Assembly: GCA_949358305.1 (NCBI GenBank)
Contig: OX442314.1
Span: 18,538,001 to 18,602,000 of the forward strand
DNA: 64,000 bases
From: Strigamia acuminata
Taxonomy: Eukaryota
Direction of reading: 5' to 3'
Part shown: positions 21,349 through 60,675 of the stretch, piece after piece
Position numbering within the stretch: the stretch's first letter is position 1
Layout: each line of letters starts with the position of its first letter
Notes under the pieces: generated by a model
Database searches by the model: none
Told to the model about the DNA's origin: nothing
Seen by the model: the letters and a program-made list of their open reading frames with translations, nothing else
Position numbers and translations under genes: made by a program

Positions 21349-23443
21349 ATGAAATATATCCAATTATCAAAACACCTAGAAACTTCGCCATTTGATGTAA
21401 TAATGCAGTTTGGCTGTGGGCCTAATTTTGTTCTCAACCGATCTAAACGTTTTAAAGCAATGATAAAGCAACAGGTAATTGATTTTTTCCCAAGTTAAGT
21501 AAAACTAACACAACGATCTCATTTCGTAGGGTGAAAAGTTTTGGTTTCGATTCTGGTTACTATTTTGTCTTAAACCAGGCTGCCACGACCTGACAGCAGT
21601 GAGTATGAATTAGTGAGTTAAAAAATCAACATTTTTCGAATTATACTTTTAAAAAAAAACGAACAGATACAAGAATTGTGGCCTGAAATGACGTACTACG
21701 TTTATTTGTGTATACATGAAATATTTCTTCAAGGTACTTTTTTTACTTTTTCATCTGTCAATGACATTTTCTCCTACTAACCTCGAAATAATTTCAGATT
21801 CCCTTGATCAAGTGACCAAATATTGTTTGAATGAAGTTATTAAACCAATGCTTACTATATCACCAGGTAATGGTGATAATTTCTTCACTTTTCATTAGTC
21901 ATATTGTATTGATTTTCGCCAGAATCACAAATAAATGCAGAATTGAGATTGCAAACAACATCCGTTGACAAAGTGAGTTAAGTCTCATGACAATAATCTA
22001 ATTAATGACCGTAATTAATTGACTCTTACTAAGATGCAAGACATTGTCATCAAAAGCACTGGAATGGCTTTTGGTGTTGCTCTCTGCGATATATTTTTCA
22101 AGTGGCTAGAAGCCGAAGAAGTGGACAGGGAAACCGAAAGCTATTGGACAATCCCTGAAGAATACTTAGACCCAAAATTTAAACCAAGAGTGCTAGAAGA
22201 ATTTTTAGTAGCGGAGTGGAAAAATAAATTGTCCGTCCTTCTTGGTGTAGACGAGGGCCAAATTCCATGGTTGAAACGACTGATGGCTGGTGACCACAAT
22301 AGACAATGGCAGGTTCAAAAGAATAAGAATAAGTGCAGACATGACTCAGTCAACTTTATCTGTCAAATGTCGGAATTCATGAATAGAAACAGAAATAGAA
22401 GAAAATATGCAATTAGAAGCGTGGATGAGTTACCATTTGCAAAGAAGATGAATGTGGTAAATAAATCAGTTTGCTTTCGTACAAATAACCAAAAAAAAAG
22501 TAAATAAATTTACAGGAGCCAAGAAAATCACCCGATCCCCGTACAGAAGATAAATTGAAAATGCAAAGACGAATGATAGAAGAAAAATATGTCACTACGC
22601 TAACTACGGCTAAGAAAAAACGCAAGGAATGTGCCTACTGTTGGTCAATCGAAGAAAGCCCAAAGAAGTTCAAAAAATGTAAACGGTAAACATTATTTTA
22701 AAAAAAACTTGTTAAAATGCATCAGTAAAAAAAAATTGTAATTGAAGATGTGTTGACGAAAAGTGGTCTGATCCGAGATATTACTGCGACCAGAAGTGTC
22801 AAAGTAAGCATTTTTACACAGTAAAAATAATATTCGTGACTTTTCATGTTTATTATGCCCAATAAAACGTGAGCATAAAATAATGCAGTCTTCCAATAAG
22901 GTCAAAACTATATTGAAATTATTGCAATGTCTTTTGAAGTGCATGGAGTTTCACAAGAATACATTTAAATATGAATTCATCTTCAAAATGAATTTTTATA
23001 AAATGCATTATTTAATTGCTACACATTTTGTAATGCAGTATATTGTAAAATATATTTTGGAACCATATATTCTATTATTGATTATGTTAATGCAGCACAC
23101 AGTGTGCAAACAAAAGTTAATGTTGCGAGTCTTGGAATTAATGTTCATGTTATTACATTTTTTAAATTGATTTTATGAAGTTGCTGACTGGAAAGAATTG
23201 CATCACGAAGAACATCTTCAGTTTCGGAGTAAAACCGTCAGTGCGTTCCCGAAAAAATCATCCAGTAATATTACAAAAGAATGGAAGGATAAAAATAATT
23301 TGTATATTCAAGAAAAGATAGTATTAGTCAGTAAAGTCAGTAAAGATGATGAATTTTCTCAATTTACCCAAAGAAACCAAGCAATAATGAAGAACAATAT
23401 TCCAATTGAAGAGGCAAAGAAAGAAAAAATTTGCAACGTGTAA
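21349..23443 (+). CDS. Family member 1: 9-exon gene, unknown N-terminal domain plus atypical MYND-like zinc finger
   Basis: Exons 21349-21474, 21530-21598, 21667-21733, 21798-21866, 21923-21972, 22034-22456, 22516-22685, 22748-22803 and 23181-23443 join in frame across GT-AG introns. Product: MKYIQL..GCGPNFVLNR|GEKFWFRFWLLFC..|..MAFGVALCDIFFKWL..|..CAYC..KKCKR|CVDEKWSDPRYYCDQKCQ|IADWKELHHEEH. Confidence 0.85.
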
Positions 23444-23981
23444 ATGAATAATCCTGATGACATTTATGTGAAATCTATGAAGGCTGCCGCACCAACATCA
23501 GTATTCTATTTTTATTGTTTTATACCAATATTTTGTATTGTTTTTAATTTGGCGTCCATAAGAAGCGGCGTAAATAGATTAGAATTTGCAATTTTAAAAA
23601 AAAAATTAAAAATAATACGCAAAAATGAAAAATCTGATAAGTAATTTACTTGTTCATATTACATTTTCTATGAAATTAAATTTAAAAAGAAATTAAGTAT
23701 AATTGACAAAACGCGTGTAAATGTACCAAATAAAAACTATTTTTTTTTAAAATACAGAATCTAATTTTTTAATAAAATTACGATTTTGGTTCAGAAGTCT
23801 GTAACTGGAGCTCTCAACAATCACACAGCTCAACTCAACAATACAAAACGAAGTGGGTGCTCTAAATAGGCTTATATCTTCCTATTGCAATATTACCAAT
23901 AAAAGGGAATCACTTACTTTTCTGGTATTACCAATTTTTGCACACGGTTCCATTTCTCCTGATTTATTCACAGTGAAAACC

Positions 23982-26029
23982 ATGAGATTTATACCACTGG
24001 GTAAAGAAAGTCCAAAAGCAGCTGATTGTCACGTGTGGAGTGTAAAAAAATTTGGCTGCGGAGGTAATTTTGTTATGAATCGCAAGGACGTTTTCGAAAG
24101 AATGATTAAAGACCAGGTGACTACATAAACGCTCATTGCCTTTTCTACAATACTAAAATAAAATTTTTAAAGGGACAGACCTTTTGGTTTCGTTTCTGGT
24201 TAAATTTCACTTTGAATACAATTTTTCCTCTCTTTAATAAGGTATAAACGAGGTATACATACACATATAAGGTATAAATAATGGCTACACTTCCTTTTTT
24301 TAAGGTTCATTTCTGTACTAAAAAAGGTTCGGAGAATGAAATTTCCAGCCTTGCTATTGATGTGCACAAAAAGTTTCTGGAAGGTCAGCAATGTGAACGA
24401 GTAATAAACAATGAAATTAAATATTTTTACATTTCAGTGTCAGAAAAAGAGCGGATTCAGTTTAGCGTCGACATTGTTCAACTCCTATTAAAACCACGTA
24501 AGCGTTTCCGTTGGATTCGACCTTCCTCCAACGTATGCATCCCTCATTGCTTTAATCCTCTGCAGCTTCGATGAAAACAGACCTATTTGAGATGTGTATT
24601 CAATATTATACGATGGCATTTGCAACGGCTCTGTGTGACGTGTTTCATAAATGGTTATCAGCCCCAAAAATTCAACCAACCAATGAGACTTATTGGAAAA
24701 TTCCGAGCCAATTCCGTAACCCCGAATTCGTGCCCGGTACAGTCGAAAAATATATTGTCTTTGTGTGGAAGGACGAAGTTGCAGCACTTCTTGGCTTGCC
24801 GACTCAAGAGTTGCCTAAACTGATGAAACTGGGCATAGAGGTTTATTCCAACCCAGTTATACAAAAGATCCACGAAGCGTTTGAGAATGTTTTAGGCAAT
24901 GAAGTAACGCTGGACCCGCCGAAGTTAGCACAGTATAAACTTCGTGTTCAACAAAAAGTAGTTGAGCTTTCGAGACTTCTTCAAAATACGGATGAAAAAC
25001 CCAACCCGAATCAGAAATTTCGTCGTAAAAGAAAACAAGAACAATCCGAATCGATTAAAGTTTACAGACCTAAAAAGGTACGTCTATACTCTACTCTGGC
25101 ATACTATAAGAAAATAAAAAATTATTAATCTAATATATTTCTAATTCCAGAGTGTAGAGTATCCAAAAGTTGAAACCATTCAAAGGCCAGACAAAGTTGA
25201 AACAGTCCAAAGGCCAGAAAAAGTTGAAATAGCTCAAATACGACCATTTGACATTGAAACTATTCTGAACCAAATAAACGTCGAGACTCTTCTAAGACCG
25301 CAACTAATTAAACCTGTTCTCAAACATAAATTGATTGCACCTCTTCTGAAGCCGAAATTGATTGCACCTCTCCTGAAGCCAAAATTGCTTTCACCCGTTC
25401 TGAGACCAAAACTGCTAACACCTGTTCAGAGGCCAAAAACGCTTGTACCGGTTTTGAAACAAAAAAGGCCTGAAACTACTGAATCACGAACAATACCGAT
25501 ACGTTTTGATCCGCGGCAAAAATTATTCAAAACAGTGAATGAAAAAATTATGGAAATGTGTGTGAATCGTAAAAGTATTGAAATGCCTGTGAGTCAAAAA
25601 AGTATTGAAATGCCTGCGAGTCTAAAAAGTATTATAACGCCTTTAAATCAAAAAAGTATTATAACTCCTATAAATCAAAAAAATATTATAACGCCTGTAA
25701 ATCAAAAAAGTATTGAATCGACTGGGTCAATTGACGATATAATGGAGTCCGATTTAAATTATCGACTGGAGAAGTTAAAAACTTGGCTCGAAGATCGAAG
25801 TCCAAATCGAAATTGTACGTCTTGTAAACTAAGACCAACTGCAGGTCAAAACCAGACAAGTATCCCGAGAAGTACATCTCTTTCCATAAGGTCTAATTCG
25901 AATACTGATAATAAGGAAGTAAGAAAGTGTAGTACGTCTTACGAGAAACCTGTACCACTAGCAGCCATAGAATACAATAAAACGAAAACTGAACCTAATT
26001 GTACCGAATTAGGGAAAACTAAACTGTAA
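23982..26029 (+). CDS. Family member 2: divergent paralogue with a repetitive C-terminal region instead of a MYND finger (3' end uncertain)
   Basis: MRFIPL..FGCGGNFVMNR..MIKDQ|GQTFWFRFWLNF..|..MAFATALCDVFHKWL..YWKIP.. A long exon from 25151 carries 9-aa repeats (KLIAPLLKP, KSIEMPVSQ). Confidence 0.72.
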
Positions 26030-26515: not shown

Positions 26516-28102
26516 ATGAAGTTTATTGATTTACGAAGAGACAACGGGAAAACTCCTTTTGATACGGTCTTAAACACCGGTTGTGGGCCTACCTTTGTTC
26601 TAAATCGAAAAAAGTATTTCTATTTTATGGTCAAAGGACAGGTAAATAGCGGAGAAATATTCAATTTTTCCTTTCCTCATTTTCAAACTAAATATTTCCT
26701 GTATTAACATTCAGAGTTTAGCATTTTGGTTCCGATTCTGGTTAACGTTCTGCCTGAATCCTGGATGCTCTTACTTAGATAATGTAAAAACAAGAATGGC
26801 GTGAACGGTGGTAGAAGTATGAAAATAAATTTATTAATTTTCAGGCATTTGAAGAATTTCCAGAACTGATGTTACACTTTTCTGAATACACGCACGAAAT
26901 TATATTACAAGGTATACCATTCACCAGCACGTAAACAGCATATAATCTGTCCATACTTTTATAGGAACAGACGACGAAATTTGCAACAAATGTTTTGATC
27001 TACTCATGAGAATGCTTCCCACACTTCTAAGTACGTGAACAAAAACGTAAACAACACACAACACTCGGTTCAATAAAATTTTAAAATTCTTATTCACAGC
27101 TCAAAATCCTATTTACAAAAAGAAATCCGTCGAATCAGTTTATAAGGTGAAGAATTCGATTAAATTAAATTAAATTGATATTAAATGCGATTTGTATTGG
27201 TCTAGGCTCAGATGTCAAGTTGTCTGGATATGGCGTTTGGTTGTGCTCTCTGTGAAGTGTTTTATAAATGGCTAAATTCCCAACGCGAAGACGAAGCTGG
27301 ATTCAATTTTTATTGGCAAATACCTGAAAAATATTTAAACCCTCAGTTCTTGCCGGGAATATTCGAACAATTTATTGTTAACCAATGGAAAGAGAATTTT
27401 GTACCTTTCCTTGGCGTAACTCCACAACAAGTTCCATGGGTAGAAGAATTACTTTCGCCACCAGGCTACGATATGATTATTCCTGACCTGAACCAGAGAT
27501 TTGAACTCTCGCCACCTCCCGAGAGTGATATAAATCTGTGGCTGAGAAAGCCGGCAGGTAGGACAAGGGTAAACCGAAGTTACAGCGATCGTTGGCACTA
27601 TTCTATAGAACTGAGGGCACTGTCCAAAAACATCAGAGAGTCACTTTGGTTGAAAAGAAATGCAATTTTGAGAATTGATGAAAAGCAAAAGTGTTCTATT
27701 TTGTTCCCCACGCGGTTCAAAATTAGTGTAACAGAAAGTAAAAACAGCAAAAGCAGCAAAAGCAGCAAAAGCAGGGTAAAATCGACAATTAAATTTGCAA
27801 ATTTTAATAAAACCAATAATTGTTTACATTTTTTTTTCTTTTTTAGATTTTCTCTTGTGATAGCACGGATAAAAGTACGGCGAGTAAACTAACTAATTCT
27901 ACACAGTCTGAACGAAGTCTGCAAGTAATTCCACACAACTTGTCCATTGAACTTGAAAGATGCTCTTACTGCAAATTACCAAGAAGAGAACCTGTGAGGT
28001 ATGTAAACTTAACAAACTATTGACAACCAAACTTTTTAATTCCTTTTTCCTTGCAGAAGAATAGTAAGCTATACAAACGACAACAATAATTATGAAATGT
28101 AA
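26516..28102 (+). CDS. Family member 3: N-terminal domain intact, zinc finger degenerate (3' exons uncertain)
   Basis: MKFIDL..GCGPTFVLNR..MVKGQ|SLAFWFRFWLTFCLNPGC..|..MAFGCALCEVFYKWL..FYWQIP..|..RCSYCK. I could not assemble an in-frame YYCxxxCQ/DW exon. Confidence 0.68.
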
Positions 28103-29170: not shown

Positions 29171-31032
29171 ATGAAATTTGTCCGTCTGCAAAGCGAAAAC
29201 AAAAAATCTCCGTATGCTACGATATCGGAGCACGGCTACGGGCCTAATTATGTTCTTAACCGGGTTCAAGATTTCAAAATAATGATAAGCGATCAGGTAG
29301 AAGTACACAAACACCTAGCCCATATTTACCTAATACTATACCGCATTTTGTAGGATTTGACTTTTTGGTTCAGGTTTTGGTTGCTGTTTTGTTTTGATCC
29401 AGGATTTGAACAACTACAATTGGTATTAATATATTAAATGATATAAAAACAAGATAACTTCATTACTCTTAATACACTTAGATCCAGGACCATTGGCCTA
29501 GAACTGCGCTGCAATGCCAAATAGTTGTGCACGATAAGTTTTTACTTGGTAAACCTTACCTAATAAAACCCAAACCCTTCTAAATAATTCATTTCCACTT
29601 TTAATTTAGGTTCAGTCAGTGAAGCGTGTGATTTTTGTTTAAATGCCGTTAGATTGTTACACTCTCCACACACAAGTAAACCTTAATACCAGAAATAAAA
29701 TTTTCTTTACAATTGTGCAACTTTTTAATGTACAGAGAAGACGAAGATAAAATCCGAAAGAAGAGCATTTAATCAACTCGTAAATATTTTCTAGTAGTAA
29801 ACGTAGTAAATAAATATTCATTTCTAATTTTAGTTGCAAGAATGTACAGAGATGGCCTTTGGTGCCGCCTTGTGCAATATTTTTGTACTGTGGCTGAATA
29901 CCGACAAGACTTATGCAAAGTGTGATACGTATTGGACCATTCCCCAGCACTATCTGTGTTCAAATTTTATTCCGGGGGAATTAGAAGTGTATCTAACTAC
30001 GCAGTGGCAGGATAATTTGGTGTCACTTCTTGGTGTTAACTTGAACCGTGTCGTGTGGATTAAAAAGATTTTACACCAATTTAAAAGACACTTGGCCGTG
30101 GCAAATATGGTTGAAAATGATCGACACACTGATTACACAAGATGGAGTCGAAAACTCATATCGGCTATGAACATGAACAGACTTGGAATAAAAAAAATTG
30201 AAGACGTACCGGAGAAGGATATTGATAAAAACTTGGTAATAAAAACAAAAAAAACTTGTCAAGCCCATGGACGGCAAAGCAAAACATTGGGGCTTTCAAT
30301 AGGGCATTGGCGCCCATGGGATTGTAGGCGTGTGATTAAATATTTAATAATTTCACATAAAAATAATCTTTCAAGTTGAAAAAATTTAAAAGAACTGGTT
30401 TTACGGAGAACAAAGTACGTCCTGTCAAAAGTAATTTAAAATTCAAAAGGCTACGCCACTGGCAGAAGTGTTCCCACTGTTATGCTAGCGAGAGTGTGGA
30501 AAAGAAATTCAAAAAGTGTAAACAGTAAGTCGCATAACACAAACTTATTGTGTCGTATGTCATCTTCAATAAAATTTCAGGTGCGTGGAAGAGCGGTGGC
30601 CTAACCCAAAGTATTACTGCTGTCGTTCGTGCCAAAGTATAAATACTATATAGTAATTACTGTATAACTTGTAGAAAAACTTGGAAATATATATGCTCAC
30701 CACAGTGCATCACGTGAATTTCGACAAGTTAAACATTGTACATGAAACACACTCTTTGAAGAGTTGGTGCAGTTTTGACATCAACTTGGCGTTACTTACA
30801 AACCGCAAGTTCTAGGTGTCTAAAAGTTTCTATTTAGTTACAAAACCACATGAAAAACCCAATAGTTTTTCTAGAAGTTAATCAGATGTACTGTACGAAC
30901 AAATATTTGATAAAAAAGGGACAAATTTTACTTTCAGTTGAGGATTGGTATTATTGCCATGAAAAAGAGCATAGAAGTTTCTCTAAAAATATATTCAGCG
31001 ACAGCGAAGACGATACAAAGCGGTTGATTTAA
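29171..31032 (+). CDS. Family member 4: 9-exon gene with MYND-like finger
   Basis: MKFVRL..GYGPNYVLNR|DLTFWFRFWLLFC|IQDHWP..|GSVSEACDFCL..|..|LQECTEMAFGAALC..|..KCSHC..KKCKQ|CVEERWPNPKYYCCRSCQ|IEDWYYCHEKEH; same intron phases as member 1. Confidence 0.85.
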
Positions 31033-31476: not shown

Positions 31477-32627
31477 ATGAAATTCATTAATCTAAGTTCG
31501 GAAAAACAAAAAACTCCATTCAGAACAATATTGGAATATGGTTGTGGTCCTAACTATATTCTTAATCGTAAGCAAGATTTCCGCTTAATGGTCGAAGATC
31601 AAGTACGGAAAATAAGAACAAACATCTAAATGCAATATTAATTCATTCATTTTTACATTCTAAGGGGAAAATCTTCTGGTTTCGATTTTGGTTAACGTTT
31701 TGTTTACACCCGGAAGACCTTGAAATAACTGAAATGGTAAATCGATTAGCATTTTTTTTAAAACAACATTAAAACTTGTATTTGTTATCGAAACAGATCA
31801 ATGACTGTATGCCAGGAGTACTAGAGATTGTTAATGAAATAATTGGTGAAAAGTTTGTGGAAGGTATATAAAAATATTGCCGCAGTTGTCCTTCATTATG
31901 TAATTACCATAAACCTTTCTTTCAGCTATGGTTCAAGAAGCTTGTGACTATGCGTTCGAAAAAATCATATCACCCATGATCCCATGCGAGCAACCGAATG
32001 GTTTGTTTATTATACCGCAATTTTGTTGCAAAAAATGACTAAGAAATGATCGGACCCAAATTCCATGTTCTTGTAATTTTGTTTATAGATTTGCAGGTGA
32101 CCAAAAACGTAAAACCGCCAGTCTGCAAATGTTCTACAAGAAAAATCATCGATGTTATGGAGAAATGTGGTTTCTTAGCATTTGGTTGTGCTCTTTGTCA
32201 GGTCTTTTACAAATGGTCAATTGGAAAAGATGCAGATGTCAGAACTGATGGCAATTACTGGACTATACCGGCTCAGTATCTACAACCCAAATTCAAGCCA
32301 GGGCCATTGGAAATATATATGGCTTATACGTGGCATTATCAATTACCGTCTTTGCTAGGAGTGAGCTTAAAAGATCTTCCGTGGTTGAAAAAACTATTAC
32401 ACATGCAGAAAAGGGGAAGACTTAAGTTTACAAGTTGTGAGGACAAAGAGTGTTTCGACACAAGTCTCTATAAACGAACTGCTGCAGATTGGGAAGAAGA
32501 TATGACATTGCTTAAGAATAATATTGTTAGTATCGACGAAAAAGTCAAATTCACAACGCCAAAGCAAGCACGGGGGATAAAAACACACAAAGTAAGAAAA
32601 TAATCATTGATATTGGTATCATCTGGA

Positions 32628-32658
<31 letters not shown>

Positions 32659-33352
32659 ATATTAATTTATCAGAGAAGAAGATTCAAAATAAATAATAAT
32701 ATAACCAACCAATTCATTCTCGAACTACCGATTGAAAACAGCTTGAGTCCAGTTGAGAATGATCCGAATGAAATGGATGTCGAGTCAATTCAAAATGGCA
32801 TGATTAATGTTGCACCAACAATCACGTACGACATTTTGTCGGAAAGGTATCCACCAGAAGTCAATCGTGAGAACAATCGTGAGAACAATATAGTAAAATG
32901 GAAAAAAGAAAAATGTCGTGTCACTTCGAATTCAACTAAAACACTACGGCACTGTGCGTATTGTCTGAAGAAAGAAACGGATCGCAAGCAATTCAAGAAA
33001 TGTGCACTGTATGAATCATCAATTTTAAGCAACTAAATTCATGTGTAATAGTTTGTTCCCATTGCAGATGCGTTAAAGAAAAAGTAAAGTCGCCCAATTA
33101 TTACTGCAGTATTGTCTGTCAAAGTAAGAAAGAAAAATCCTTAACGAATCGTACAAACTAATGCATTCTACTATTACAGCCCAAGATTGGTTTAGAAGAC
33201 ACGACGTTGAGCATCAAAAAAATTGTGGTCAAATAAAGCCACTCATTGGCATGTTTAGTCAGTGTATTTACACATGTTCGTATTCCTTACAGGTATTACA
33301 GATTACACTAACATTAATAGAAAAGAGGAAACCTGTTTGTTCAGGTCAATAA
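31477..33352 (+). CDS. Family member 5: gene with MYND-like finger (exons 5 and 6 fused)
   Basis: MKFINL..GCGPNYILNR..MVEDQ|GKIFWFRFWLTFC..|..LAFGCALCQVFYKW..NYWTIP..|..RHCAYC..KKCAL|CVKEKVKSPNYYCSIVCQ|TQDWFRRHDVEH; exact stop uncertain. Confidence 0.82.
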
Positions 33353-34848
33353 ATCCCATTGAAAGCTTCAATGAGCAAATCAAGAAGGCCAGATGTTCAA
33401 TCTAAGAGCAATATAAATCAACTTGATTAGTTTTCTGTTAATTAATATTTTAATTGTGCTATGTTTTTACGGTATGACAACTTAAGAGTTTGTTATCACC
33501 TTTACATTAAAATCCATGCGCTAGCAAGAAAAGAAAAGATTCAATGGTTTTGCTTTTAATTCAATATTAATGATCCTTTGACGTAAAATAAAACTAGAAA
33601 ATAATAAATAATTATTTTATATTTTTTAAAAAATAAAAATTTACCATGTGCGCTCCGTTAAATTTAATTACATTAAATCAGACAATCAACATGAAGCAAA
33701 CAAGTTATCCAAAATGAAGCCAGATGGTTTAGATAACAAAGATTAATATGATTTGTTTCTGATTTATTTTCTCTAAATTGCTTTTTAAGTAGTGTAACGT
33801 TTAACAGAATTAGCAAATTTTGAGTACAATCATCGCCTCTCCGTTGGTTACGAGAAAGAATAATAATTGCTCATCACAAAATATGCAACTTCTCCACTAT
33901 CCATCCACCCATATGGCTAAAAAAAAATTAATTGGGCAATGTAAAAATATATTGTAAATATATCTTTTAATCGTACGAGCAACAACGTTGTGAGAGTGGA
34001 CGGGAATGCCCAAACAGCGCTGGACACTCGACACGTGTAGATAAGAGACACACAAGAGACTGTATTCGAGGCAACGGAAACTGCTTGCGTCCAAAAAATC
34101 TTGACGTTGACGCCAATTCCTGCTTCAACTCCAAGTTGAAGTAAGCGACGCAACGCAAGGAAAGGTCTTGTGGCCAACCAATCAAGATCGACTCTAACTC
34201 TCGTCGATTCACGTCTGGTTGGCGAGACTTTGCCACACGCAAACAGGCCGCCATTTTGGGATTTTGGAACTACCAGTAGTTCTGGAACTAAATCCAATTC
34301 CAGGTTACATTAAAACCATCTGATTTGCCAGACGTGCCCTACAGTGTGAACAGACTCTGCATTGCGTTTTTCCTTGCGTTGCGTTGCGTCTAGTGTGAAC
34401 ACAAGTGTGAACCAAGCTTTACATACACCAAAAAATCTACGAAGATAGACAGATGTCATCTGGACCCTGATAGTGCCGGACGCACGACATCTGTTATAGA
34501 TAATGGCACTTAAAACTGGATTTATGACAGTTTATTCAGTTGTCTAGGGGTCAATGCCTCATGGTCATGCCTTTTCCCAATGCTTTCGCTTTTCTACTCC
34601 ATTCTTGCACGATTCTGCTTCTACCTTCCCATTGGTTGCTGAAAGTGATTTATGGAACCAGCAACTCCGCCCAGGTGGGTGGAGTTGCACTTAGTGGTAA
34701 ACGGTTACAAATCTAACATCTTTGCCACAATCATTCAGCGACTCAGTGCGCAGAACCAGCGACGAAAACACTATACAGTTCGACTTCGAGCCACAACATT
34801 GAATTTTAAGATTCATCTACACTACTTTTTAATTTAAATCTGTGAAAA

Positions 34849-37542: not shown

Positions 37543-37676
37543 ATATATTTTATTTTAACCGTACCAAAATAATTATTATTCAATGTTATATATACTTAAT
37601 TAGCTAAAAAAAAATAGTACTTAGATTTTCAAATGAGTGGTCATAAATCAAAAAATTAATAAAAGTAAGATGTAAT

Positions 37677-45502: not shown

Positions 45503-45553
45503 AAATCGCCACCAGAACAAAATCAATAACGTCAATTACAACAAAAGTACTAA

Positions 45554-46682: not shown

Positions 46683-46999
46683 ATATATTTTATTTTAACC
46701 GTACCAAAATAATTATTATTCAATGTTATATATACTTAATCAGCTAAAAAAAATTGTACTTAGATTTTGAAATTAGTGGTCATAAATCAAAAAATTAATA
46801 AAAGTAAGATGTAATAAGATATTGTACAATCTAAAAATAACAATTTTTCAAATACGCTTATCATAAATCACACAATTTCCGCAATAACAAGAAAATTCTC
46901 AGAAATATTTTCCGTTGCTAGTGTGAATCAGGAGAGCATATTTGTTCTTTTTGCACTTTAAGACTCGTCCAAGGTAATTTATCACGAATATAGGCCGAA

Positions 47000-50480: not shown

Positions 50481-50840
50481 CTGTACCTTACTACACTTAC
50501 ATCATTTGTAATAAAATTTCCCACACTTAGCGAAAGATATCACTCATGATTGCAAGAAAAAAGTGACCATGAACAAAAAAAATTTGATGAAATTAATAAC
50601 ATTCTATTGTCCAAAGATAAAAATTTTCAGAAAAGAATAAATTTACCATTAATTATACAATTTCCGCAACAACAAAAAATTTCTCAGAAATATTTCTTTT
50701 GTCGTTGCTTGTGCGAATTAGCCGTAAAAAACGCAGAAACCGTAAACCACTTTGTATCGCCAGATTTCTACAAGCTGCAAGATGTATACACTCCAATTTT
50801 AAGACTCCCTTGAGGTAATTTATCCTGAATATTGGCAAAA

Positions 50841-53711
50841 ATGAAGATCGCATATTTTTTTTATCTTTATCAATTCATAATCAACACCATGTGCAAAAGT
50901 GAACTCTGTTCCACAATTTTCTGTGCAACCCGACAACCTGCGTGCATTTCATTAGACGAAACATGTTCCTGCAAGCACCAAAAACTGCACTGTCCTAATC
51001 TCAATTCAAACGCATTCGGTTTTGATTACGACAAATTCGATAACACGTTTGGTTTATTTGGACAACTTGGTTTCAACACAACAGTGAGCGATGCATTAAA
51101 GTTATGGACTCCTTATTTCGCTTCAATAACAGTTCCGTATTTGAATTTAAACAATTTTTGTGACCGTGTAAAGCAACCAGCGCCTCTTGGATGTACATCT
51201 ACAAATCTTCAAGGTCAAGACGACTCGCTAATTCTTGATTTCAATTCTTTCCCAATCATACATTCTATAAAAACATTGCAACTGGGTTTCGATTGCCTTC
51301 GAGATGTTACTGGTGATATTAGTTCGAAACTCCCGAACTTGGAAGTCATTTCTCTACTAGGAAATCACTTCACTAAAATTCCCGACGCCATTAAAAACTT
51401 AAACAGCTTGAAGGAATTGATATTGTCAACTAATTTCTTAAGTAAATTATCCAGAAATATGTTCAGTAACCTAACCCATCTGCAACAACTTTTCCTGAAC
51501 GAAAACTGCATTGAATCGTTACCAAACGATACATTTCACGACTTATTTCAACTGAGACTGCTGTCCATGAATTCTAATGGTTTGAAATCGTTACCATCGA
51601 ATTTGCTGCATCGAAATTTCGACCTAACAACGCTTGACTTGTCAATGAATGAATTGGAAGAAATGCCCGTCAACTTCCTTCAGAAAAATGACAAACTTGT
51701 ACACTTGACGTTGCATTCCAACAAAATAAAATCGTTAAACACCAGTGTATTTTCCGCATTAAGAAAACTAAAAAACTTAAACTTGGAACACAATCGATTA
51801 GCATCGTTATCTCCTTATTTATTCCAATTCACATCAGATCTCGAATCGGTGAACTTGAACTTCAACAACTTCACACGGATTCCGACTATATTCTTACGAA
51901 AACACGACGCTGCGAGCATCTACTTAACCAGAAACAACATAACAACATTGGATTTGCCCCTAACGAGCCGAATACCCAACGCCAAATTCCTAGACCTGTC
52001 GTATAACTGCATTCACAAAATTGAACTTAACGACTATGAGGTTAGCCCGATTCCACAAACATTAATTGATGGTGGTGGCATTGTGGACTTGAGATGTAGA
52101 ACATGTTGCCTTAAAGATGACATTTTTCCAGACATTTTGACCGGCATGCGGAAACGAATAGATATATCTTACAACATGATAACACAATTGAACGTGACAC
52201 TTGTGAATTTACACAAAAGCTCGTCACTTTTAAACCTAGACATTGGAAATAATTCGATCAGTAATATCCTGATTGACAAGACAGCTGAAAAATTGAATGA
52301 AGATGATCGCAGGCTTGCAATCGATTTGTGGTTAAATCCAATCAATTGCGATTGCAAGTCAATTCCATTATTTGAAGTACTCTATTTGAAAAAATTCGAT
52401 TATCCCGTAAAATTCGATTCAGAATTTATGTGGTGTAACCAACCAAACGAGTTACGAGGAAAATTGCTCGAAACTGTGGACTGGAGAAATCTGTACTGCA
52501 AGTTTACACAAAATTGCCCTAAATCATGCAGGTGTGTCAATTTTACCTACAAAAACCGAATTGTAGTGAATTGCAGCCACGCTGAGCTAACACAATTTCC
52601 ACTGTATTTTGACAACACATCAAACACTATAGTTTTTGACTTGCAACATAATAACATAACTTCATTGCCTCCGAAAAATTCTTCAATTTGGTCAAAAATA
52701 CAAGAACTAAACCTTAGTCACAACAAAATCCAAACCATTGCGAATATTACCGTCACTCCCACATTAAGTCGAATTGAATTGAACAACAATCATCTGACTC
52801 GTTACGAACAGTCAATCAGACATCTATTCACAATGGATAATATTTCCAGAACTGTCACTCTTTCCGGAAACCTTTGGCTGTGCAGTTGTGAGCTAACTCA
52901 AATGCGAAACATCATGATTAAAAGTCCAAGTCGTTTGTTGGATCTGGATAAAATGAAATGTACATTTGAAGACTCCCTATATGGTTTTAACGATCTCGAT
53001 CAGTTTTGTCCACCAGACTTGTCGGAAGTAGACCTGGCATTGAGAGCGATATTGCCCGTCTGTGCTTTTATTATAATCTTAATAAGTGTTTTGAGTGTCA
53101 TTTTTGTTCGCCGTAAATTGGAAATCCAATATTTCTTGTTTTCTAAAGGATGGTGTTTACGTTTTGTGAGTGAAGACGATGTTGATGCTGATAAACTCTT
53201 CGATGCTTTTGTTTCTTACAGCAGTGAAGACGGTGAATGGGTTAGAGACGTCCTTGTGCAGGAATTGGAACTAAAGTCTCCATCTTACAAGCTGTGTATC
53301 CACGAACGAGACTGGCCGGGCGGCGAACTAATACCGGAGCAAATCGTACGCTCAGTAAGACATAGCCGACGCACAATCATCGTACTGACCGAGCACTTTC
53401 TCACGAGTGATTGGAGTTTGATGGAGTTTTCCGTGGCTTATCAGCAAGCTGTTAAAGATGGAATAAGACGACTTATGGTTATCATCCCCTACAAAATGCC
53501 AATCTTAGAGAATGCGCCTGATGAATTGCGTGCATTTCTTTCAACCACTACTTACATCGAAGCAAATAAACCGCACTTTTTAAAAATACTCAGACGTTCA
53601 ATGCCAAGAATCCGAACAAAAAACGACACATCACCATCACCATCAGCATCAATATTATTGGAATCGGTGCAATCTTCGCCACCAGAGGGCAGTTTTTCTA
53701 ATTATTGTTAA
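50841..53711 (+). CDS. Toll-like receptor B3, intronless, ~956 aa (true ATG probably 50841)
   Basis: MKIAYFFYLYQF start aligns with B1/B2; LRR/TM/TIR. Confidence 0.95.
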   Translation: MKIAYFFYLYQFIINTMCKSELCSTIFCATRQPACISLDETCSCKHQKLHCPNLNSNAFGFDYDKFDNTFGLFGQLGFNTTVSDALKLWTPYFASITVPYLNLNNFCDRVKQPAPLGCTSTNLQGQDDSLILDFNSFPIIHSIKTLQLGFDCLRDVTGDISSKLPNLEVISLLGNHFTKIPDAIKNLNSLKELILSTNFLSKLSRNMFSNLTHLQQLFLNENCIESLPNDTFHDLFQLRLLSMNSNGLKSLPSNLLHRNFDLTTLDLSMNELEEMPVNFLQKNDKLVHLTLHSNKIKSLNTSVFSALRKLKNLNLEHNRLASLSPYLFQFTSDLESVNLNFNNFTRIPTIFLRKHDAASIYLTRNNITTLDLPLTSRIPNAKFLDLSYNCIHKIELNDYEVSPIPQTLIDGGGIVDLRCRTCCLKDDIFPDILTGMRKRIDISYNMITQLNVTLVNLHKSSSLLNLDIGNNSISNILIDKTAEKLNEDDRRLAIDLWLNPINCDCKSIPLFEVLYLKKFDYPVKFDSEFMWCNQPNELRGKLLETVDWRNLYCKFTQNCPKSCRCVNFTYKNRIVVNCSHAELTQFPLYFDNTSNTIVFDLQHNNITSLPPKNSSIWSKIQELNLSHNKIQTIANITVTPTLSRIELNNNHLTRYEQSIRHLFTMDNISRTVTLSGNLWLCSCELTQMRNIMIKSPSRLLDLDKMKCTFEDSLYGFNDLDQFCPPDLSEVDLALRAILPVCAFIIILISVLSVIFVRRKLEIQYFLFSKGWCLRFVSEDDVDADKLFDAFVSYSSEDGEWVRDVLVQELELKSPSYKLCIHERDWPGGELIPEQIVRSVRHSRRTIIVLTEHFLTSDWSLMEFSVAYQQAVKDGIRRLMVIIPYKMPILENAPDELRAFLSTTTYIEANKPHFLKILRRSMPRIRTKNDTSPSPSASILLESVQSSPPEGSFSNYC

Positions 53712-54058: not shown

Positions 54059-56120
54059 ATGAAATTCATCCAATTGATCAGAGAACCGGGTGAGACTCCA
54101 TACGACACAATAGTGCGTTTAGGTTGTGGGCCTAACTTTGTACTTAACCAACTGGACACATTTGAATCGATGATCAAACAACAAGTATTAAAATAAAGCA
54201 ACAACTAACCTTAAACAATGTCTTCTAACTAAAACCACTTCATTTTGCAGGGTTTGACATTTTGGTTCCGGTTTTGGTTAACCTTTTGTTTCGATCCAGG
54301 TTGTGAAAACCTAAAAATGGTAAGAAAAATTGCAATTTAGTGACTGCAAGTCTTAAAGAGTCGAAACGTCACTGTTCATTTGGTAAATAAGTCATTTCAT
54401 GTTATTTAACACGTGTAGATTCAAGAAAAATGGTCCCATGTGACAACAAATGTTAAAATTGAAATCCACAAAGAATTTTTACAAGGTCTTTACAAACTTT
54501 TATAAAATATTTATACATTACTGTATTAATTTTCTATTTAATAGGTTCAGTAGACGATGCAATAAAGTATAGTTTGGACACAGCCATCATGTGTCTTAGA
54601 AATAAAAGTATACACATCATATATTTTATGAATACGAGATCTTTTCTAAAATCACGCATTATGTTTTCCTCAGAAAAAAATATAGTTTCACAAACAAATG
54701 CGATGAAGCATTTGTTTTCCGATGTAGTAAGTACAGTAAGTTGTGTGCTCTGGACATAAACCCCAAAGCCCAGCTGAGTCTGGTCGAGCGAGCACAAACT
54801 GTTGTAAAGATTCATTGGGTTTGGGTTGGGCCTGAGCTGTTCCGTCTGAATTAGAAGCCGTCAGGATAACATGTCCAGACCACTCAGCTTACAATAGCTG
54901 CATTAAAAAATAAAAATACAATTTTAGTTTAAGTAGTGTATTTTAAGTTTAAATTTTGATATATTATATACAATATAATTATAAATAAATAATTAATATA
55001 ATTTGATTTAATTTAATAAATAAGACAGGAAATGATGTCATTTTTGTTTTAAAATTGAAGTAAAACACAAAATATTTTAATTTTTGAACCTGATGCGTAG
55101 TTTCAAATTTAGCATCAAGATACCAGGCGTGAACTGTAGTGTGCTTAATGACAAATCCACCATTGGTTATGCCTATATTTTTTTTAATCCACCATTGTTT
55201 TATTATTTTAGTTACACGAATGTATGATAATGGCGTTCGGAGCCTCGCTTTGTGAAGTTTTCTACAAATGGCTCTCAGCTCCGCAAATGGATGAAACGTG
55301 TGATAATTATTGGAAAGTTCCAGAGAACTACTTGGATTCAACTTTTGAACCTAAGGAATTAGAGATGTATTTAGTTGAATACTGGGAAGATAATTTAGTT
55401 ACGCTTTTCGGAGTACGGTTAAGAAATGTGCCATGGGTGTTACGACTGATATACAAGAATAAAGAGAGCAATATTGAGACTGAAAATGAAGATGTTGTGA
55501 ACCTAGACGAATACGTTTATTTAACACCATACCTCAAGCTCATAACTCAGATCACAAAATCGATGAAAAATAACTCCGACGAACGGCGATTAGAGATAAA
55601 TAAAGCGGATGAATTACCAAACATGGGCAAAATTTGGAGCGACGGTAAACTATCGAGCGAAATGGAACAAGTTTATTTAAAAACAACTAATGTCATATCC
55701 ACGCGGTTTCGAAAACTCTACAATCGAAAGAAAAATAGTAAAAGCAATGTTGACGAGATCGAACAAAAACAAACGACTAGTCCGATAAATGAAGCGCTGG
55801 TGTGTGGCTTATGTTTAGGCGAGTTAGATGTTTTGACAAACGATATGAGAAAGTGCAAACGGTCAGTTTTCTTATTGCCAAATGCAAAATTTATATTAAA
55901 ACAATTCTTTTTAGATGCGTGGATGAACATTGGGTACATCCACGATATTACTGTTCGGATACCTGCCAGAGTAAGTACTACAGTAAAAGTTTGTGGATTT
56001 CAGAAATGTGGCCTGTCGTCCCAACTCCTAACTCAATACTGAATTTAATTTGTTCTAGTGGAAGACTGGTTTCTGCACCACCAAAAAGAGCATGCTACCT
56101 GCATGCAGAAGAAGCTTTAA
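54059..56120 (+). CDS. Family member 6: gene with MYND-like finger (exons 6 and 7 read through)
   Basis: MKFIQL..GCGPNFVLNQ..MIKQQ|GLTFWFRFWLTFCFDPGC|IQEKWS..|GSVDDAIKYSL..|..|LHECMIMAFGASLCEVFYKWL..CGLC..RKCKR|CVDEHWVHPRYYCSDTCQ|MEDWFLHHQKEH. Confidence 0.85.
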
Positions 56121-56578: not shown

Positions 56579-58126
56579 ATGAAGTTTATAGATATATCAA
56601 ACGATTGCGACCATTGCTCATGGGATATAATAGAAAAACATGGATGCGGGCCGAATTTTTTACTGAATAGGCAAGAAGAATTTGAATCAATGATAAAGGA
56701 CCAAGTACTATTACATATCAAGTTTGATATAAAATTTTCTAATGATCATACAATTTTCCATTTTTAGGGTTTTGTATTTTGGTTTAGATTTTGGTTAACT
56801 TTTTCTTTTGAGCCTGGTTGTTGTGAACTGAAAGAAGTATGACTAAACTTATAAAATAACAACTCTATAGAATAAAATCATAACAAATTAGATACAAAAC
56901 GAATGGTTTGAAGCTAAACACGCGGCCAATATATTTATTCATCAACAATTCTTACAAGGTGAATACTCGACGCATTTGCGATCTAAGTCTTACATTAATA
57001 TCACACATTTAAGGTTCGGCACAAGATGCTATAACATATTGCCTAGGCAAAGTAATCCAAAGATTAAAAGTTTGCAGTTAAGTATTATCCTTTTCTGTAT
57101 TAATTAATTCTACAAATTTTTAATTTCTTTTCAAGAAAAAACCCGTGTTGGTAACTGGCGGACCCGCCAACAAATGTATTCAGACTTGGTAGGTAAGTAA
57201 AAGCACGTATTTAATTGCAATTTTTAATTGACATCCAAGCTATAGTTGCAGGAATGTACCGAAATTGCATTTGGAACTGCTCTTTGTGCAGTTTTCTACA
57301 AGTGGTTAACCACAAATAAGAAACAAGAGAAGCAAAAATATTGGAAAATTCCTAGCACTTACTCAGACCCCCAATTTGAGCCAGGTGCACTGGAGGATTA
57401 TTTAATGAACTATTGGGAAGACAATTTGATGGTGCTTCTTGGTGTTCAATTGCGCCAAGTTCCGTGGGTGTTGAAGCAATTCTACACATCCACGCCCACG
57501 AAACATGTTGATAAACCCATTACAAATTTGTTTCCAATGTCGGAAAAAATCGTACCAATTTTAAAAAGTTTCAGAAACTTAAAGAGAATAGGAATTGAAA
57601 TTGTTGATGATTTACCGAAAGTAAAAGAAACCTAAACTAATACAATTTATCTTTAAAAATGTAGAATTTGTACTCCTTTTATAGTTTGGTGACCCCAGAG
57701 TGAATTATACCTCGCGTGAATTGAATTCAAAACCGCTTGAGATGGAAAACGATAACATACAAGATTATGTATTTAATATTATGTATTTCAACCATCATCA
57801 ATGTTCCCATTGTTTGAGTTTAGAATGCATCACCAAGAAGTTTCGTATTTGTAAAGCGTGAGTGTTATTAGTGTATTACCTCGTCGTCTAATTCTGATGT
57901 GGCGAATTTGAAATTCGAATTACAGATGTCAGGAAGAATGCGTTGTTTATCCACGATATTATTGCAGCGATTTATGTCAAAGTAAGTTCTGAAACAAATA
58001 GAATGTTTAAAAAAAATATTTAAACATGTCTTTCAATTTGCTTTAGTGGAAGATTGGTTTCAACTACATTGTGCAGAGCATGACAAGAAGATACTTAATA
58101 TTGACAGCCTTGGGTTTAAGAAATAA
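56579..58126 (+). CDS. Family member 7: 9-exon gene with MYND-like finger
   Basis: MKFIDI..GCGPNFLLNR|GFVFWFRFWLTF..|IQNEWF..|GSAQDAITYCL..|..|LQECTEIAFGTALCAVFYKWL..|..QCSHC..RICKA|CQEECVVYPRYYCSDLCQ|MEDWFQLHCAEH. Confidence 0.85.
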
Positions 58127-58340
58127 AAATATTCTTTTGTTATTATTTTACCACTTATTAAAATATTCAAATAAAATGTAAAGCTTTAATAAACGCCAAA
58201 TAAAAAATTGGACAATTTTTTTAAAAGCAGAAAAATGAAGATTCTATCCCTTGCCTACAGATGGAGCTAAATGTTACACATTCCCAATCCTTCATCTTTG
58301 ATAAAAATTATTTAGAGTCGTCGCATTCCGCTGTTTCACA

Positions 58341-60675
58341 ATGAAATTTATCGATTTAAAACAGGACGGCAAATCACCGTACGATTCGATTATAACTAAC
58401 AGTTGTGGGCCTAACTATGTACTAAATAGACTTGACTTGTTTGAATCTATGATAAAAGAGCAAGTAAGAATGCTAAACCTTAACCTTACCATCTTAAACG
58501 ACATTCCGTCATTGCTAATCTGCATTAATCTATCAGGGCATTATATTCTGGTTCAGGTTTTGGTTAATGTTTTCTTCTACACCTTGCTGCAGTGACCTGG
58601 AAATGGTAAAATAACATAACTTAATTTAAAACTGTTACAGTGCAAATTGTTAAATGTAAAAGATTTGTCACTAACAGATTCAAAAGCAATGGCCGTATGA
58701 AAGAACCACAGCAAATATTCAGATACATAAAGAATTTCTTAAAGGTATCACTTCAACTAAAATAATTTAACTTAAATTAAATTTGCTTAATATCAAGATG
58801 CATCCTAAGTTTGTTTACATGGTACAACAAAAATAAACAACAAAACCCACCTAACTGTAGTTTCACCTGGAAGCATTATATTATAAAAATTAAAAGTTTG
58901 ACTTCCAAATCTAACTTATGACTTTTAACTTTAAATTTTTGATTTATCTTGCAGGTTCGGTTGAAGATATGATAAGTTATTGTTTAAATGAAGCTATCAA
59001 CCAGCTAAAATTTGCGAGTATTATTACTTACAACCACTTCATCATTGCCGCCATGTGTTAAATCAATTTATTTTGTAGGAATTTTACCACATACATCAAA
59101 ACGAAAAACCAGCTACCAGATGTTAAACAATTTGGTGCGTGAGCCAAAATGATTCTATAAAATCGTAATTTTGGATGTATCTAAGCAACACGGTGTTTTA
59201 CATGTTTCTAAAATAGGTGCAAGAATGTTCTGACACAGCATTTGGTGCGTCATTGTGTGAAGTTTTTTACAAGTGGTTGAAAGCTAAAGATTTGACTGGC
59301 AAATGCCAAAATTATTGGCAAATTCCGAACGAATATTTAGATCCTGCTTTTGAACCAGGAATTTTAGAAAAATTCTTGGTCGAACGTTGGGATAACAATT
59401 TGGTCGTTCTACTGGGAGTCAATTTACGAGATATTCCTTGGCTACTGAAGATATTATACAGTTCAAAACTAACTACTGAACTCATGTATCACATCACGGA
59501 CAAAGATCCAATGCTATCTGCAATTGTGGAATTTTTAAGAAAATACAGACACAGAACGAGAGTTCACATTAGAAATGCTGACGAACATCTGGAGGTAAAT
59601 CATAGCGCAATTTATTAATGACAACCAATAAGAACGGTTACAAAACAGCCATCGTTCAGCTGACCAACAAACTTTCGTTATATCAAACCGATTTTATGGG
59701 TCCCTTGCAATTCGTTATAAGGAGATTCAACTGTACTGATAAGCTGTTCGATAAATAACCTTTTTCTTTTAAATGGATGCTGTATTAGCAGATTAGACAA
59801 ACGAACCCTGATGCTGGCAAAATTAATAGAAAAAGTAGGAGTTCCAAAAAGAATGGAATCTGTTGCAACAATGTAAATTCTGGTTTCCCAAATGATGCAT
59901 CGTTACAGCATGAAGATTTTTCTATATGTTGCTACTGCTCGGGAACTGGATCCAATTTATCAAATCTGATTAAATGCAAAAGGTGAGTCATCAACTGCAT
60001 TTAATCCTGAATGCTAAGCGACTTGACAGACTTTCATTCCTTTATGTCATTTCCTGATGTCAAAAAGAGGTAAAGCAAGAAAAGTAGCAAAGTAAAAGAA
60101 TAAGGGAAATTAGAAACCTACTTACCGTATAAGCTTAAACGTGGGACTCGAAATGTCACTGCGCATGCTCAGAGCATATTTACGAATAAATGCCAGTATG
60201 ATTTGTTTTTGAGACACCCACTACAATATATACGTTTCAATGTTTCCCCTAATATTGCACTCAACTCGCCTAATGAAAATCTGCAAAGTCACTTTTCAAG
60301 ATGTTCGTGATGTTGACAGCTTTTTTCATTGCAGATGCATTTCAGAAAATTGGGAAAAGCCAAGATGTTATTGTACTTTTATATGTCAGAGTAAGTACAC
60401 ACAGTTTACACTGTAACCCCAAAAAAACCTTAACCAATATAATTTTTTCACTTCACATAGTGGAACATTGGTTTCTGAATCATAATAATGAGCATAATGT
60501 GATGGAGATGCATGAAACAAACAATTCCTCTGGGCCACTAGAAACTATGCCCAAACCGCTAACACGTGGCATCAAACATGTTAAGAACACGCCAACGATG
60601 TCTACTAAAAGCTGCATGGAATCACGTGGTAGTAAAGTTGGTATTAAAAAAATATCTAAAATTGTGAAAGTCTGA
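58341..60675 (+). CDS. Family member 8: 9-exon gene with MYND-like finger
   Basis: MKFIDL..SCGPNYVLNR|GIIFWFRFWLMF..|IQKQWP..|GSVEDMISYCL..|..|VQECSDTAFGASLCEVFYKWL..|..CCYC..IKCKR|CISENWEKPRCYCTFICQ|MEHWFLNHNNEH. Confidence 0.85.

What the first reader, a model, noticed from the sequence alone, without database searches (positions are those of the whole stretch)
21349..60675. Eight-member tandem family of uncharacterised genes: unknown N-terminal domain plus a non-canonical MYND-like zinc finger
Seen in sequence: eight co-oriented genes (ATGs at 21349, 23982, 26516, 29171, 31477, 54059, 56579, 58341). They share one exon skeleton (intron phases 0,0,1,1,0,0,2,1) and a ~220-aa N-terminal region. 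Near-invariant motifs are MK/RF/Y-I/V-x-L, GCGPNFVLNR, FWFRFWL (identical in all eight), AFGxxLCxVFYKWL, YWxIPxxYLxPxFxPG and WxDNLVxLLGVxxxxVPW; the intervening sequence is highly diverged. Motif conservation despite divergence, together with intact splice phases, implies purifying selection on a folded domain. I do not recognise this domain as any named family. The genes are invisible in the ORF track except as fragments. Inference: a lineage-specific expanded family built on a possibly undescribed domain.
Basis: partly seen in the sequence, partly recalled or inferred. Interest (0 to 1): 0.88.

Follow-up and report, generated by a model that had tools for sequence, protein, structure and literature searches.

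The report
Centipede-expanded helical-domain MYND finger family
Eight intact, long-diverged centipede genes encode a helical domain that resembles no solved structure searched here, six of them with an unusual MYND zinc finger; relatives occur in spiders, horseshoe crab and a clam, and the proteins likely act as adaptors that grip proline-rich partners.

Summary
The family is real. All eight genes splice (GT-AG) into open frames of 353-577 aa. Synonymous sites are saturated while the ~215-aa N-terminal domain stays 30-52% identical. The details were overstated. Only 4 of 8 genes have the full intron pattern, only 6 of 8 have the finger, and only FWFRFWL holds in all eight as written.

The window is likely from a centipede close to Strigamia maritima, which holds at least 24 domain copies and orthologues 70-85% identical. 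The domain is not lineage-specific. Spiders, horseshoe crab and a clam have the same domain-plus-finger design. The domain is probably already catalogued as DUF8117/PF26431 (inferred, not scanned). The expansion is centipede-specific within the sequences found.

A confident model (pLDDT 85.5) is all-helical, and its best match among 48,161 solved chains is only Z 4.1. The finger is a MYND with His as eighth ligand and keeps the Tyr/Gln/Trp that bind proline-rich peptides.

Best reading: an intracellular, non-catalytic adaptor (about 0.5). No RNA data or binding test was obtained.

The parts
21349..23443 (+). g1, 430 aa: N-domain, basic linker, C6H2 MYND finger
   Evidence: Exons 21349-21474, 21530-21598, 21667-21733, 21798-21866, 21923-21972, 22034-22456, 22516-22685, 22748-22803, 23181-23443. 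S. maritima orthologue T1IGY3: 181/212 identical in the domain, 43/49 in the finger, 55/92 in the linker.
23982..26029 (+). g2, 577 aa: most diverged N-domain, no finger, long tail of 9-residue repeats
   Evidence: Exons 23982-24116, 24173-24241, 24305-24383, 24438-24497, 24566-25077, 25151-26029. Finger profile finds nothing. First 45 residues 41/45 identical to the tail of T1IGY3, so g1-g2 adjacency is shared with S. maritima.
25328..25438 (+). 27-nt tandem repeat in g2 encoding three PxLxP motifs (possible MYND docking sites; weak lead)
   Evidence: Repeat. Motifs: (3 copies; at least one arises in 27-32% of shuffles, and the three are copies of one unit).
26516..28102 (+). g3, about 380 aa: N-domain, finger decayed to a CxxC remnant; 3' end uncertain
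   Evidence: Exons 26516-26641, 26715-26783, 26845-26911, 26965-27030, 27100-27146, 27206-27775, 27847-27998, last exon from 28057 or 28158. Orthologue T1IGY2 161/210 identical; its model also has no finger.
29171..31032 (+). g4, 357 aa: N-domain plus finger
   Evidence: Exons 29171-29296, 29354-29422, 29482-29548, 29610-29675, 29736-29779, 29834-30235, 30376-30524, 30581-30636, 30938-31032.
31477..33352 (+). g5, 468 aa: N-domain plus finger; lacks intron 5
   Evidence: Exons 31477-31602, 31665-31736, 31797-31863, 31926-32000, 32089-32591, 32674-33008, 33068-33123, 33180-33352. Orthologue T1IVL9 150/213 identical.
54059..56120 (+). g6, 381 aa: N-domain plus finger; lacks intron 6
   Evidence: Exons 54059-54184, 54251-54319, 54419-54485, 54545-54607, 54674-54726, 55212-55861, 55915-55970, 56059-56120; the intron-3 donor is weak (GTCTTT).
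56579..58126 (+). g7, 353 aa: N-domain plus finger
   Evidence: Exons 56579-56704, 56768-56836, 56892-56958, 57014-57076, 57136-57188, 57246-57620, 57685-57857, 57926-57981, 58047-58126.
58341..60675 (+). g8, 406 aa: N-domain plus finger
   Evidence: Exons 58341-58463, 58537-58605, 58678-58744, 58955-59017, 59079-59134, 59217-59594, 59789-59982, 60335-60390, 60461-60675. Closest to the first half of T1IVL8, 154/208 identical.

Best explanation
These are eight functional-looking paralogues of an old protostome family (probably DUF8117), expanded in centipedes, that likely work as intracellular adaptors: a predicted all-helical N-terminal domain would dock on one partner while the C-terminal MYND finger would grip a proline-rich peptide in another. 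Shown: gene structure, selection, homology to chelicerate and mollusc proteins, and finger residues. Predicted: the helical fold. Inferred: non-catalytic role, peptide binding by the finger, and location in cytoplasm or nucleus. A variable, often basic linker of 74-159 residues joins the two parts. Duplication would have diversified partners or tissues, and two copies (g2, g3) dropped the finger while keeping the domain.
For: Finger: Tyr, Gln and Trp at the MYND spacing (0, +6, +10) in 6 of 6 window fingers. These are the three strictly conserved non-zinc residues that contact PXLXP/PPPLI peptides, and mutating the Gln or Trp abolishes binding (PMC4742278, passages; PMC3555993, passages). zf-MYND matches 13 of 14 family members at E<=1, best 7.7e-8. 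The modelled finger lies on the BS69 MYND at 1.7 A over 39 residues, Z 3.8. N-domain: 22 of the 30 most conserved columns are hydrophobic and only 4 polar. No signal peptide or clear membrane helix; best 19-residue hydropathy is 0.96-1.71. Confident compact helical model, pLDDT 85.5, pTM 0.84. Domain-at-Met1 and finger-at-end architecture is kept in centipede, spiders and clam. Domain and finger are more conserved than the linker between orthologues: 85%, 88%, 60%.
Against: No partner, location or expression is known for any member. The finger departs from the MYND consensus (His as last ligand, one extra residue before the first His, longer loops), and MYND domains differ in ligand specificity (PMC3555993). 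Four polar positions (Gln41, Arg48, His81, Glu180, P0015 numbering) are nearly invariant from centipede to chelicerates and could mark an active or ligand site. 2 of 8 window genes and the horseshoe-crab isoforms lack a finger, so the finger is dispensable for some members.
Confidence: 0.5

Rival explanations
1. The N-domain is an enzyme or small-ligand/nucleic-acid binding module, and the finger only targets it.
For: Near-invariant Gln41, Arg48, His81, Glu180 and a frequent Cys143 across centipede and remote members. Many invariant aromatics could line a pocket. Two HEPN-type chains rank second and third in the fold search (Z 4.0).
Against: No enzyme family hit in Pfam, NCBIfam or PDB sequences. 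The HEPN alignments score Z 4.0 at rmsd 3.4-4.2 and run into the less conserved tail helix. Only 4 of the 30 top-conserved columns are polar. I could not check whether the four residues cluster in space.
Confidence: 0.2
2. The N-domain contains a highly diverged CARD/death-fold-like module, and the proteins are innate-immune signalling adaptors that self-associate, expanded alongside the neighbouring Toll-like receptors.
For: The top fold match is the ARC CARD (Z 4.1, rmsd 3.1, 76 of 80 residues on model residues 20-150), and 6 of the top 50 rows are named CARD chains (7 of 50 with the weaker model). Four intronless TIR-bearing receptors lie inside the array. Strigamia has expanded TLRs (PMC4833078, passages).
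Against: Z 4.1 is below the 7-8 typical even for models with no clear relative, and 0 of 48,161 chains reach Z 5. No CARD/Death Pfam hit at E<=1. The TLR genes are 66-94% identical at DNA level, far younger than the synonymously saturated array. The family is under strong purifying selection with stable orthologues. Consecutive S. maritima accessions T1IVL7-T1IVM0 are all family members, with no TLR between them if accession order follows gene order (inferred).
Confidence: 0.1
3. They are germline or sperm/cilium assembly factors of the ZMYND10 type (helical region plus terminal MYND), duplicated as testis genes. This is a more specific version of the adaptor reading.
For: The best sequence match of the finger among solved structures is ZMYND10 (E 0.0086), which is also the top Foldseek row. 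That ZMYND10 is a dynein-arm assembly factor, and that compact tandem gene arrays are often testis-expressed, is recalled knowledge.
Against: The match covers the finger only. No ZMYND10-like protein was among the 28 hits of the N-domain profile. No expression data.
Confidence: 0.15
4. The array is decaying or transposon-derived sequence with no cellular role.
For: Two intact copia elements lie in the window; g3's finger has decayed; no transcripts were seen.
Against: All eight frames are open after synonymous saturation; 22 of 22 invariant degenerate columns use more than one codon. Orthologues are kept in a second species. Multi-intron structure, no mobile-element domain hit, and no relative in viral or metagenome contigs.
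Confidence: 0.03

Closest known systems
DUF8117 / Pfam PF26431 proteins (Mya arenaria WAR25533.1; unnamed Logan proteins P0023, P0037)
   Same: Homologous N-terminal domain starting at Met1 and the same C6H2 finger at the C-terminus. A profile of 7 non-centipede relatives alone finds all 8 window models at E 1e-10 to 2.9e-5 for a 1.84-billion library; fingers are 16-26 of 49 identical.
   Different: The relatives are 480-1290 aa with long middles, against 353-577 aa here. The centipede copies carry their own motifs (GCGPNF loop, second Trp of FWFRFW, LLGV..PW end). That PF26431 is DUF8117 is recalled. That the label sits on this domain is inferred from shared regions. The window proteins were not scored against that model.
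MYND zinc finger (PF01753) proteins: ZMYND10, BS69/ZMYND11, ETO, DEAF-1, SMYD
   Same: Two CxxC pairs, Y-C-x3-C-Q-x2-D/H-W core, terminal position, peptide-binding Tyr/Gln/Trp, predicted fold.
   Different: The eighth ligand is His, not Cys (C6H2 instead of the C4-C2HC given in PMC3555993), in 6 of 6 window and 19 of 19 database fingers. Trp-x3-His spacing and longer loops. Most centipede members fall below the Pfam cut-off. The partner domain is unrelated to SET, SAND, bromo or ankyrin domains as far as tested.
MetAP1 N-terminal zinc finger (C6H2 type)
   Same: Six Cys and two His ligands (MetAP1 ligand set recalled; C6H2 resemblance mentioned in PMC4994957). The mouse MetAP1 finger 7sek is among the fold matches (Z 4.0).
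   Different: No zf-C6H2 or peptidase M24 Pfam match at E<=1. The finger is C-terminal and closer in sequence to MYND.
Strigamia maritima UniRef entries T1IGY2/3, T1IVL7-T1IVM0, T1ISU7-9, T1J705/7 and others
   Same: The same family; four close pairs with window genes (g1, g3, g5 at 100/100, g8 at 92/48).
   Different: Automatic labels only ('MYND-type domain-containing' or 'uncharacterized'); several entries fuse neighbouring genes; no study found.

Membership tests
MYND finger (PF01753) | Eight zinc ligands in the C4-C2HC order, ending in Cys | tested here: not met
   Last ligand is His in 6 of 6 window fingers and 19 of 19 database fingers, with a pattern that allowed either residue; consensus from PMC3555993.
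MYND finger (PF01753) | Conserved non-zinc Tyr, Gln, Trp of the peptide groove | tested here: met
   All three in 6 of 6 window fingers; Gln replaced in 5 of 19 database fingers, Trp in 1 of 19 (residues from PMC4742278).
MYND finger (PF01753) | Pfam gathering score 22.7 bits | tested here: inconclusive
   Relatives score 15.5-32.7 bits; P0007, P0022, P0023, P0026 pass and the others do not. The spliced window proteins were not scanned.
MYND finger (PF01753) | Cross-brace treble-clef fold | tested here: inconclusive
   Model of an S. maritima finger (pLDDT 74-89) matches MYND chains: top two Foldseek rows E 0.58 and 1.7; 5hda Z 3.8, rmsd 1.7, 39 aligned.
MYND finger (PF01753) | Binds a proline-rich (PXLXP/PPPLI-type) peptide | not testable with these tools
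DUF8117 / PF26431 | Score above the family's cut-off | not testable with these tools
   The Pfam copy here gave no such family for P0023 or P0027, whereas the newer precomputed annotation lists PF26431 on P0023 and P0037.
DUF8117 / PF26431 | Homology to proteins that carry the label | tested here: met
   Centipede profile finds P0023 (E 4.8e-7) and P0027 (E 1.8e-4); reciprocal remote-only profile finds 8 of 8 window models.
DUF8117 / PF26431 | The label lies on the N-terminal domain | tested here: inconclusive
   P0023 and P0027 share only residues 1-210/1-162 and the finger. No coordinates for the label were returned, and PF26431 = DUF8117 is recalled.
MetAP1-type zf-C6H2 | Six Cys plus two His ligands | tested here: met
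   Invariant C, C, C, C, C, C, H, H in 14 of 14 aligned fingers.
MetAP1-type zf-C6H2 | Pfam zf-C6H2 match and a following M24 peptidase domain | tested here: not met
   Neither is among the families matched at E<=1 by 14 members.
CARD / death fold | Six-helix Greek-key bundle superimposing on CARDs | tested here: inconclusive
   Z 4.1, rmsd 3.1, 76 aligned (4uz0_B), tied with unrelated helical folds.
CARD / death fold | Pfam CARD/Death/DED/PYD match | tested here: not met
   None at E<=1 in scans of 4, 9 and 14 members.
Transposon protein | Transposase, integrase or RT domain, or flanking terminal repeats | tested here: not met
   No such Pfam hit for family members; self-comparison shows LTR pairs only around the two copia elements.

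The most novel reading that the evidence does not exclude
The N-domain is a new all-helical fold, possibly built around a CARD-like six-helix core, that serves as a homotypic interaction module. The centipede paralogues would form a combinatorial network in which finger-less members such as g2 supply PxLxP docking sites for their siblings' C6H2 MYND fingers.
Probability: 0.1. Interest if true: 0.75.

Novelty: new variant of a known kind. Interest (0 to 1): 0.45.

Why it matters
It links an unstudied centipede expansion (8 genes here, at least 24 domain copies in S. maritima) to an old protostome family with no known function. It gives the domain a confident model whose best match among 48,161 solved chains is weak, which makes it a good structure target. 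It also defines a His-terminated MYND subtype kept from centipede to clam. Many compact paralogues make conserved-surface mapping and partner screens practical. It does not yet bear on a long-standing question, and the domain is probably already listed as a DUF.

Tried and rejected
No whole genome was held, so copy number in this species is unknown. No RNA evidence was obtained, so all junctions rest on conservation. The complex predictor was not available; a planned test of finger against the g2 PxLxP repeat was never run.

Sequence searches of solved structures found nothing for the N-domain: 0 hits at E<=1 for P0003, 0 at E<=10 for the centipede profile, and 2 chance-level hits (E 0.31, 0.56) for the broad profile. 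Foldseek gave no PDB match at E<=0.001 for either model, and none in viral models, which were searched only with the weak model. VIA-align gave 0 chains at Z>=5 for either model. These blanks do not prove a new fold, and no library of predicted cellular structures was available.

The ESM Atlas gave no usable hit for two queries. NCBIfam: 0 of 9. Viral and metagenome contigs: 116 and 290 pattern matches, none confirmed; these used the centipede alignment only. P0019 (turtle complement receptor, Sushi repeats) was rejected as a false hit among the 28. P0028's label 'Na+/melibiose symporter-like' was not accepted, since it aligns with the domain's first 120 residues. The SAM domains in P0014 look like a fused neighbouring gene. 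A 7-mer scan of 450 nt upstream gave mostly A/T-rich words, with no shuffle control, so no shared promoter motif is claimed. The 244-aa remote-profile search covered only proteins of 558-2000 aa and returned 4 proteins, so absence from insects, crustaceans or vertebrates is not shown.

Literature: 0 papers for DUF8117, PF26431 or centipede+MYND+gene family expansion. Strigamia+MYND gave 2 matches, 1 listed, an unrelated spider paper seen as a listing only. The S. maritima genome paper has 0 occurrences of MYND in its main text; its supplements were not read and might list the family. Earlier scan notes held nothing on this family.
Full report
Observation. I built gene models by coordinates. 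All eight splice through GT-AG introns, mostly 53-90 nt, into stop-free frames of 430, 577, 380, 357, 468, 381, 353 and 406 aa. A profile of the domain run over six frames finds pieces only in these eight genes. Introns 1 and 3 sit in the same alignment column in 8 of 8 genes, intron 2 in 7 of 8, and the two finger introns in 6 of 6. The shared-skeleton claim is true only in part. The full phase string holds in 4 of 8; g5 and g2 lack intron 5, g6 lacks intron 6, g2 has no finger and g3 only a remnant. Junctions are unconfirmed by RNA.

Selection. Over the domain the paralogues are 30-52% identical. In all 28 pairs pN (0.30-0.46) is far below pS (0.66-0.79). dS is undefined in 10 pairs, and dN/dS is about 0.14-0.36 in the other 18 (my arithmetic; near saturation, so rough). 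Fourfold third positions are 0.32 identical against 0.28 expected at saturation, while second positions are 0.66 identical. All 22 invariant columns with degenerate codons use more than one codon. The duplications are old and the protein is constrained.

Relatives. An alignment of the eight long exons found four Strigamia maritima proteins, and a second search four more. A full profile search of 1.84 billion representatives gave 28 hits: 20 S. maritima, 7 remote, 1 false. The named remote hits are horseshoe crab (Tachypleus, seven RefSeq isoforms in its cluster), two spiders (Uloborus, Parasteatoda) and the clam Mya. Two unnamed Logan proteins share a longer region with the spider ones, and one JGI fragment covers the first 120 residues. 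Five of the seven end in the same finger; Tachypleus and the fragment do not. A profile of the remote seven alone recovers all eight window models at E 1e-10 to 2.9e-5. In a 38-row tree, 8 window and 24 S. maritima copies form one clade (100/100) against six remote rows. g1, g3 and g5 pair with S. maritima genes at 100/100 and g8 at 92/48. Left out of the tree: P0019-P0021, P0028-P0035, P0037, P0039-P0042, the first copy in P0036 and the tail of P0002; some S. maritima entries look like duplicate haplotypes. Orthologue identity of 70-85% places the window in a centipede near, but not identical to, S. maritima (inference). So the domain likely predates the arthropod-mollusc split, and the compact multi-copy form is centipede-specific among the sequences found. 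Copy number in the other animals was not tested.

Is the domain named? The Pfam copy here has no match for it. The database's newer annotation puts PF26431 and PF01753 on P0023 and P0037, and UniRef calls the clam protein 'DUF8117 domain-containing'. P0023 and the clam protein share only the N-domain and the finger. With my recall that PF26431 is DUF8117, the N-domain is probably that DUF (about 0.8). No paper in the library mentions either label.

Structure. With 34 rows, AlphaFold2 modelled the S. maritima member P0015 at pLDDT 85.5 and pTM 0.84. It has thirteen helices within residues 13-210 and only single-residue bridges at 2 and 154. Foldseek found no PDB match at E<=0.001, best 2.7. VIA-align against 48,161 chains gave none at Z>=5; the best was the ARC CARD at Z 4.1, rmsd 3.1, 76 aligned, tied with HEPN and other helical chains. 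Six of the top 50 rows are named CARDs, which is a lead only. Conservation is mostly hydrophobic core (22 of the top 30 columns), with Gln41, Arg48, His81 and Glu180 as the polar exceptions. There is no signal peptide or convincing membrane helix, and 5 of 8 genes have basic clusters after the domain.

Finger. The pattern is C-x2-C, C-x2-C, Y-C-x3-C-Q-x2-D/H-W-x3-H-x3-H. All eight ligands are invariant in 14 aligned relatives, and the last is His in 6 of 6 window and 19 of 19 database fingers. Canonical MYND is C4-C2HC (PMC3555993, passages). zf-MYND matches 13 of 14 members, mostly under the cut-off. ZMYND10 is the nearest solved sequence, E 0.0086. The Tyr, Gln and Trp that bind PXLXP in BS69 (PMC4742278, passages) are kept at the same spacing in 6 of 6 window fingers. 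This is a MYND-derived finger with a MetAP1-like ligand set, and it is family-wide rather than a centipede oddity.

Mechanism. The most likely reading (0.5) is an intracellular adaptor. The finger binds a proline-rich peptide (inferred from retained residues) and the helical domain binds a second partner (inferred from the lack of an obvious catalytic constellation). Rivals are an enzyme or ligand-binding domain (0.2), a ZMYND10-like germline or cilium factor (0.15), a CARD-like immune adaptor (0.1) and non-function (0.03). The Toll-like receptor block inside the array is weak support for immunity. Those four genes are 66-94% identical in DNA and flank a copia element with identical LTRs, so they are much younger than the array, and TLR expansion is a known general trait of Strigamia (PMC4833078 and PMC4244043, passages). 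One odd feature: g2, which lacks a finger, carries three PxLxP motifs in a 9-residue repeat, the only such motifs among the eight. But they are copies of one unit, and one occurrence arises in 27-32% of shuffles.

Papers seen. Passages: PMC3555993, PMC4742278, PMC4833078, PMC4244043, PMC4994957, PMC10642216 (the last not useful). Listings only. No supplements were read.

Verdict. A real, well-constrained gene family with an orphan-looking helical domain and a variant MYND finger. New variant of a known kind; interest 0.45.

Noticed in passing
window 34846-37542, 42659-45502, 46994-49876, 50829-53711 (+): Four intronless Toll-like receptor genes (LRR plus TIR), 66-94% identical in DNA, sit between family genes g5 and g6; the last three are a recent triplication.
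   Followed up: partly
window 6546-11319 (+): Intact Ty1/copia retrotransposon with one 1368-aa ORF and 215-nt LTRs that are 100% identical, so a very recent insertion.
   Followed up: partly
window 37676-42477 (-): Second copia element with 159-nt identical LTRs, inserted just after the first Toll gene; its pol is in two ORFs (39407-42328 and 38005-39450) in different frames.
   Followed up: partly
window 37233-37676 vs 45554-45789 and 46612-46815: The 3' end of the first Toll gene is 92-95% identical to stretches downstream of the second Toll gene, although their coding bodies are only about 70-78% alike; this suggests partial duplication or gene conversion.
   Followed up: no
window 25165-25717 (+): The tail exon of g2 holds three separate 27-nt (9-residue) coding repeats; one encodes PxLxP motifs.
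   Followed up: partly
window 61175-64000: C/A-rich 11/22-nt satellite with a higher-order repeat of about 1100 nt (two identical 175-aa minus-strand ORFs at 61498 and 62600) running off the window end.
   Followed up: no
P0022, P0023, P0025, P0026, about residues 280-340: The spider and spider-like relatives share an extra Cys/His-rich segment after the N-domain, absent from the centipede and clam proteins; possibly a second zinc site.
   Followed up: no
S. maritima entries P0001, P0002, P0009, P0010, P0036, P0042: Several UniRef entries hold two or three domain copies in a row, probably neighbouring genes fused by annotation, which points to further tandem arrays in that species.
   Followed up: partly
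window 20349-20551: Perfect 50-nt tandem repeat, 4.1 copies, 800 nt upstream of g1.
   Followed up: no
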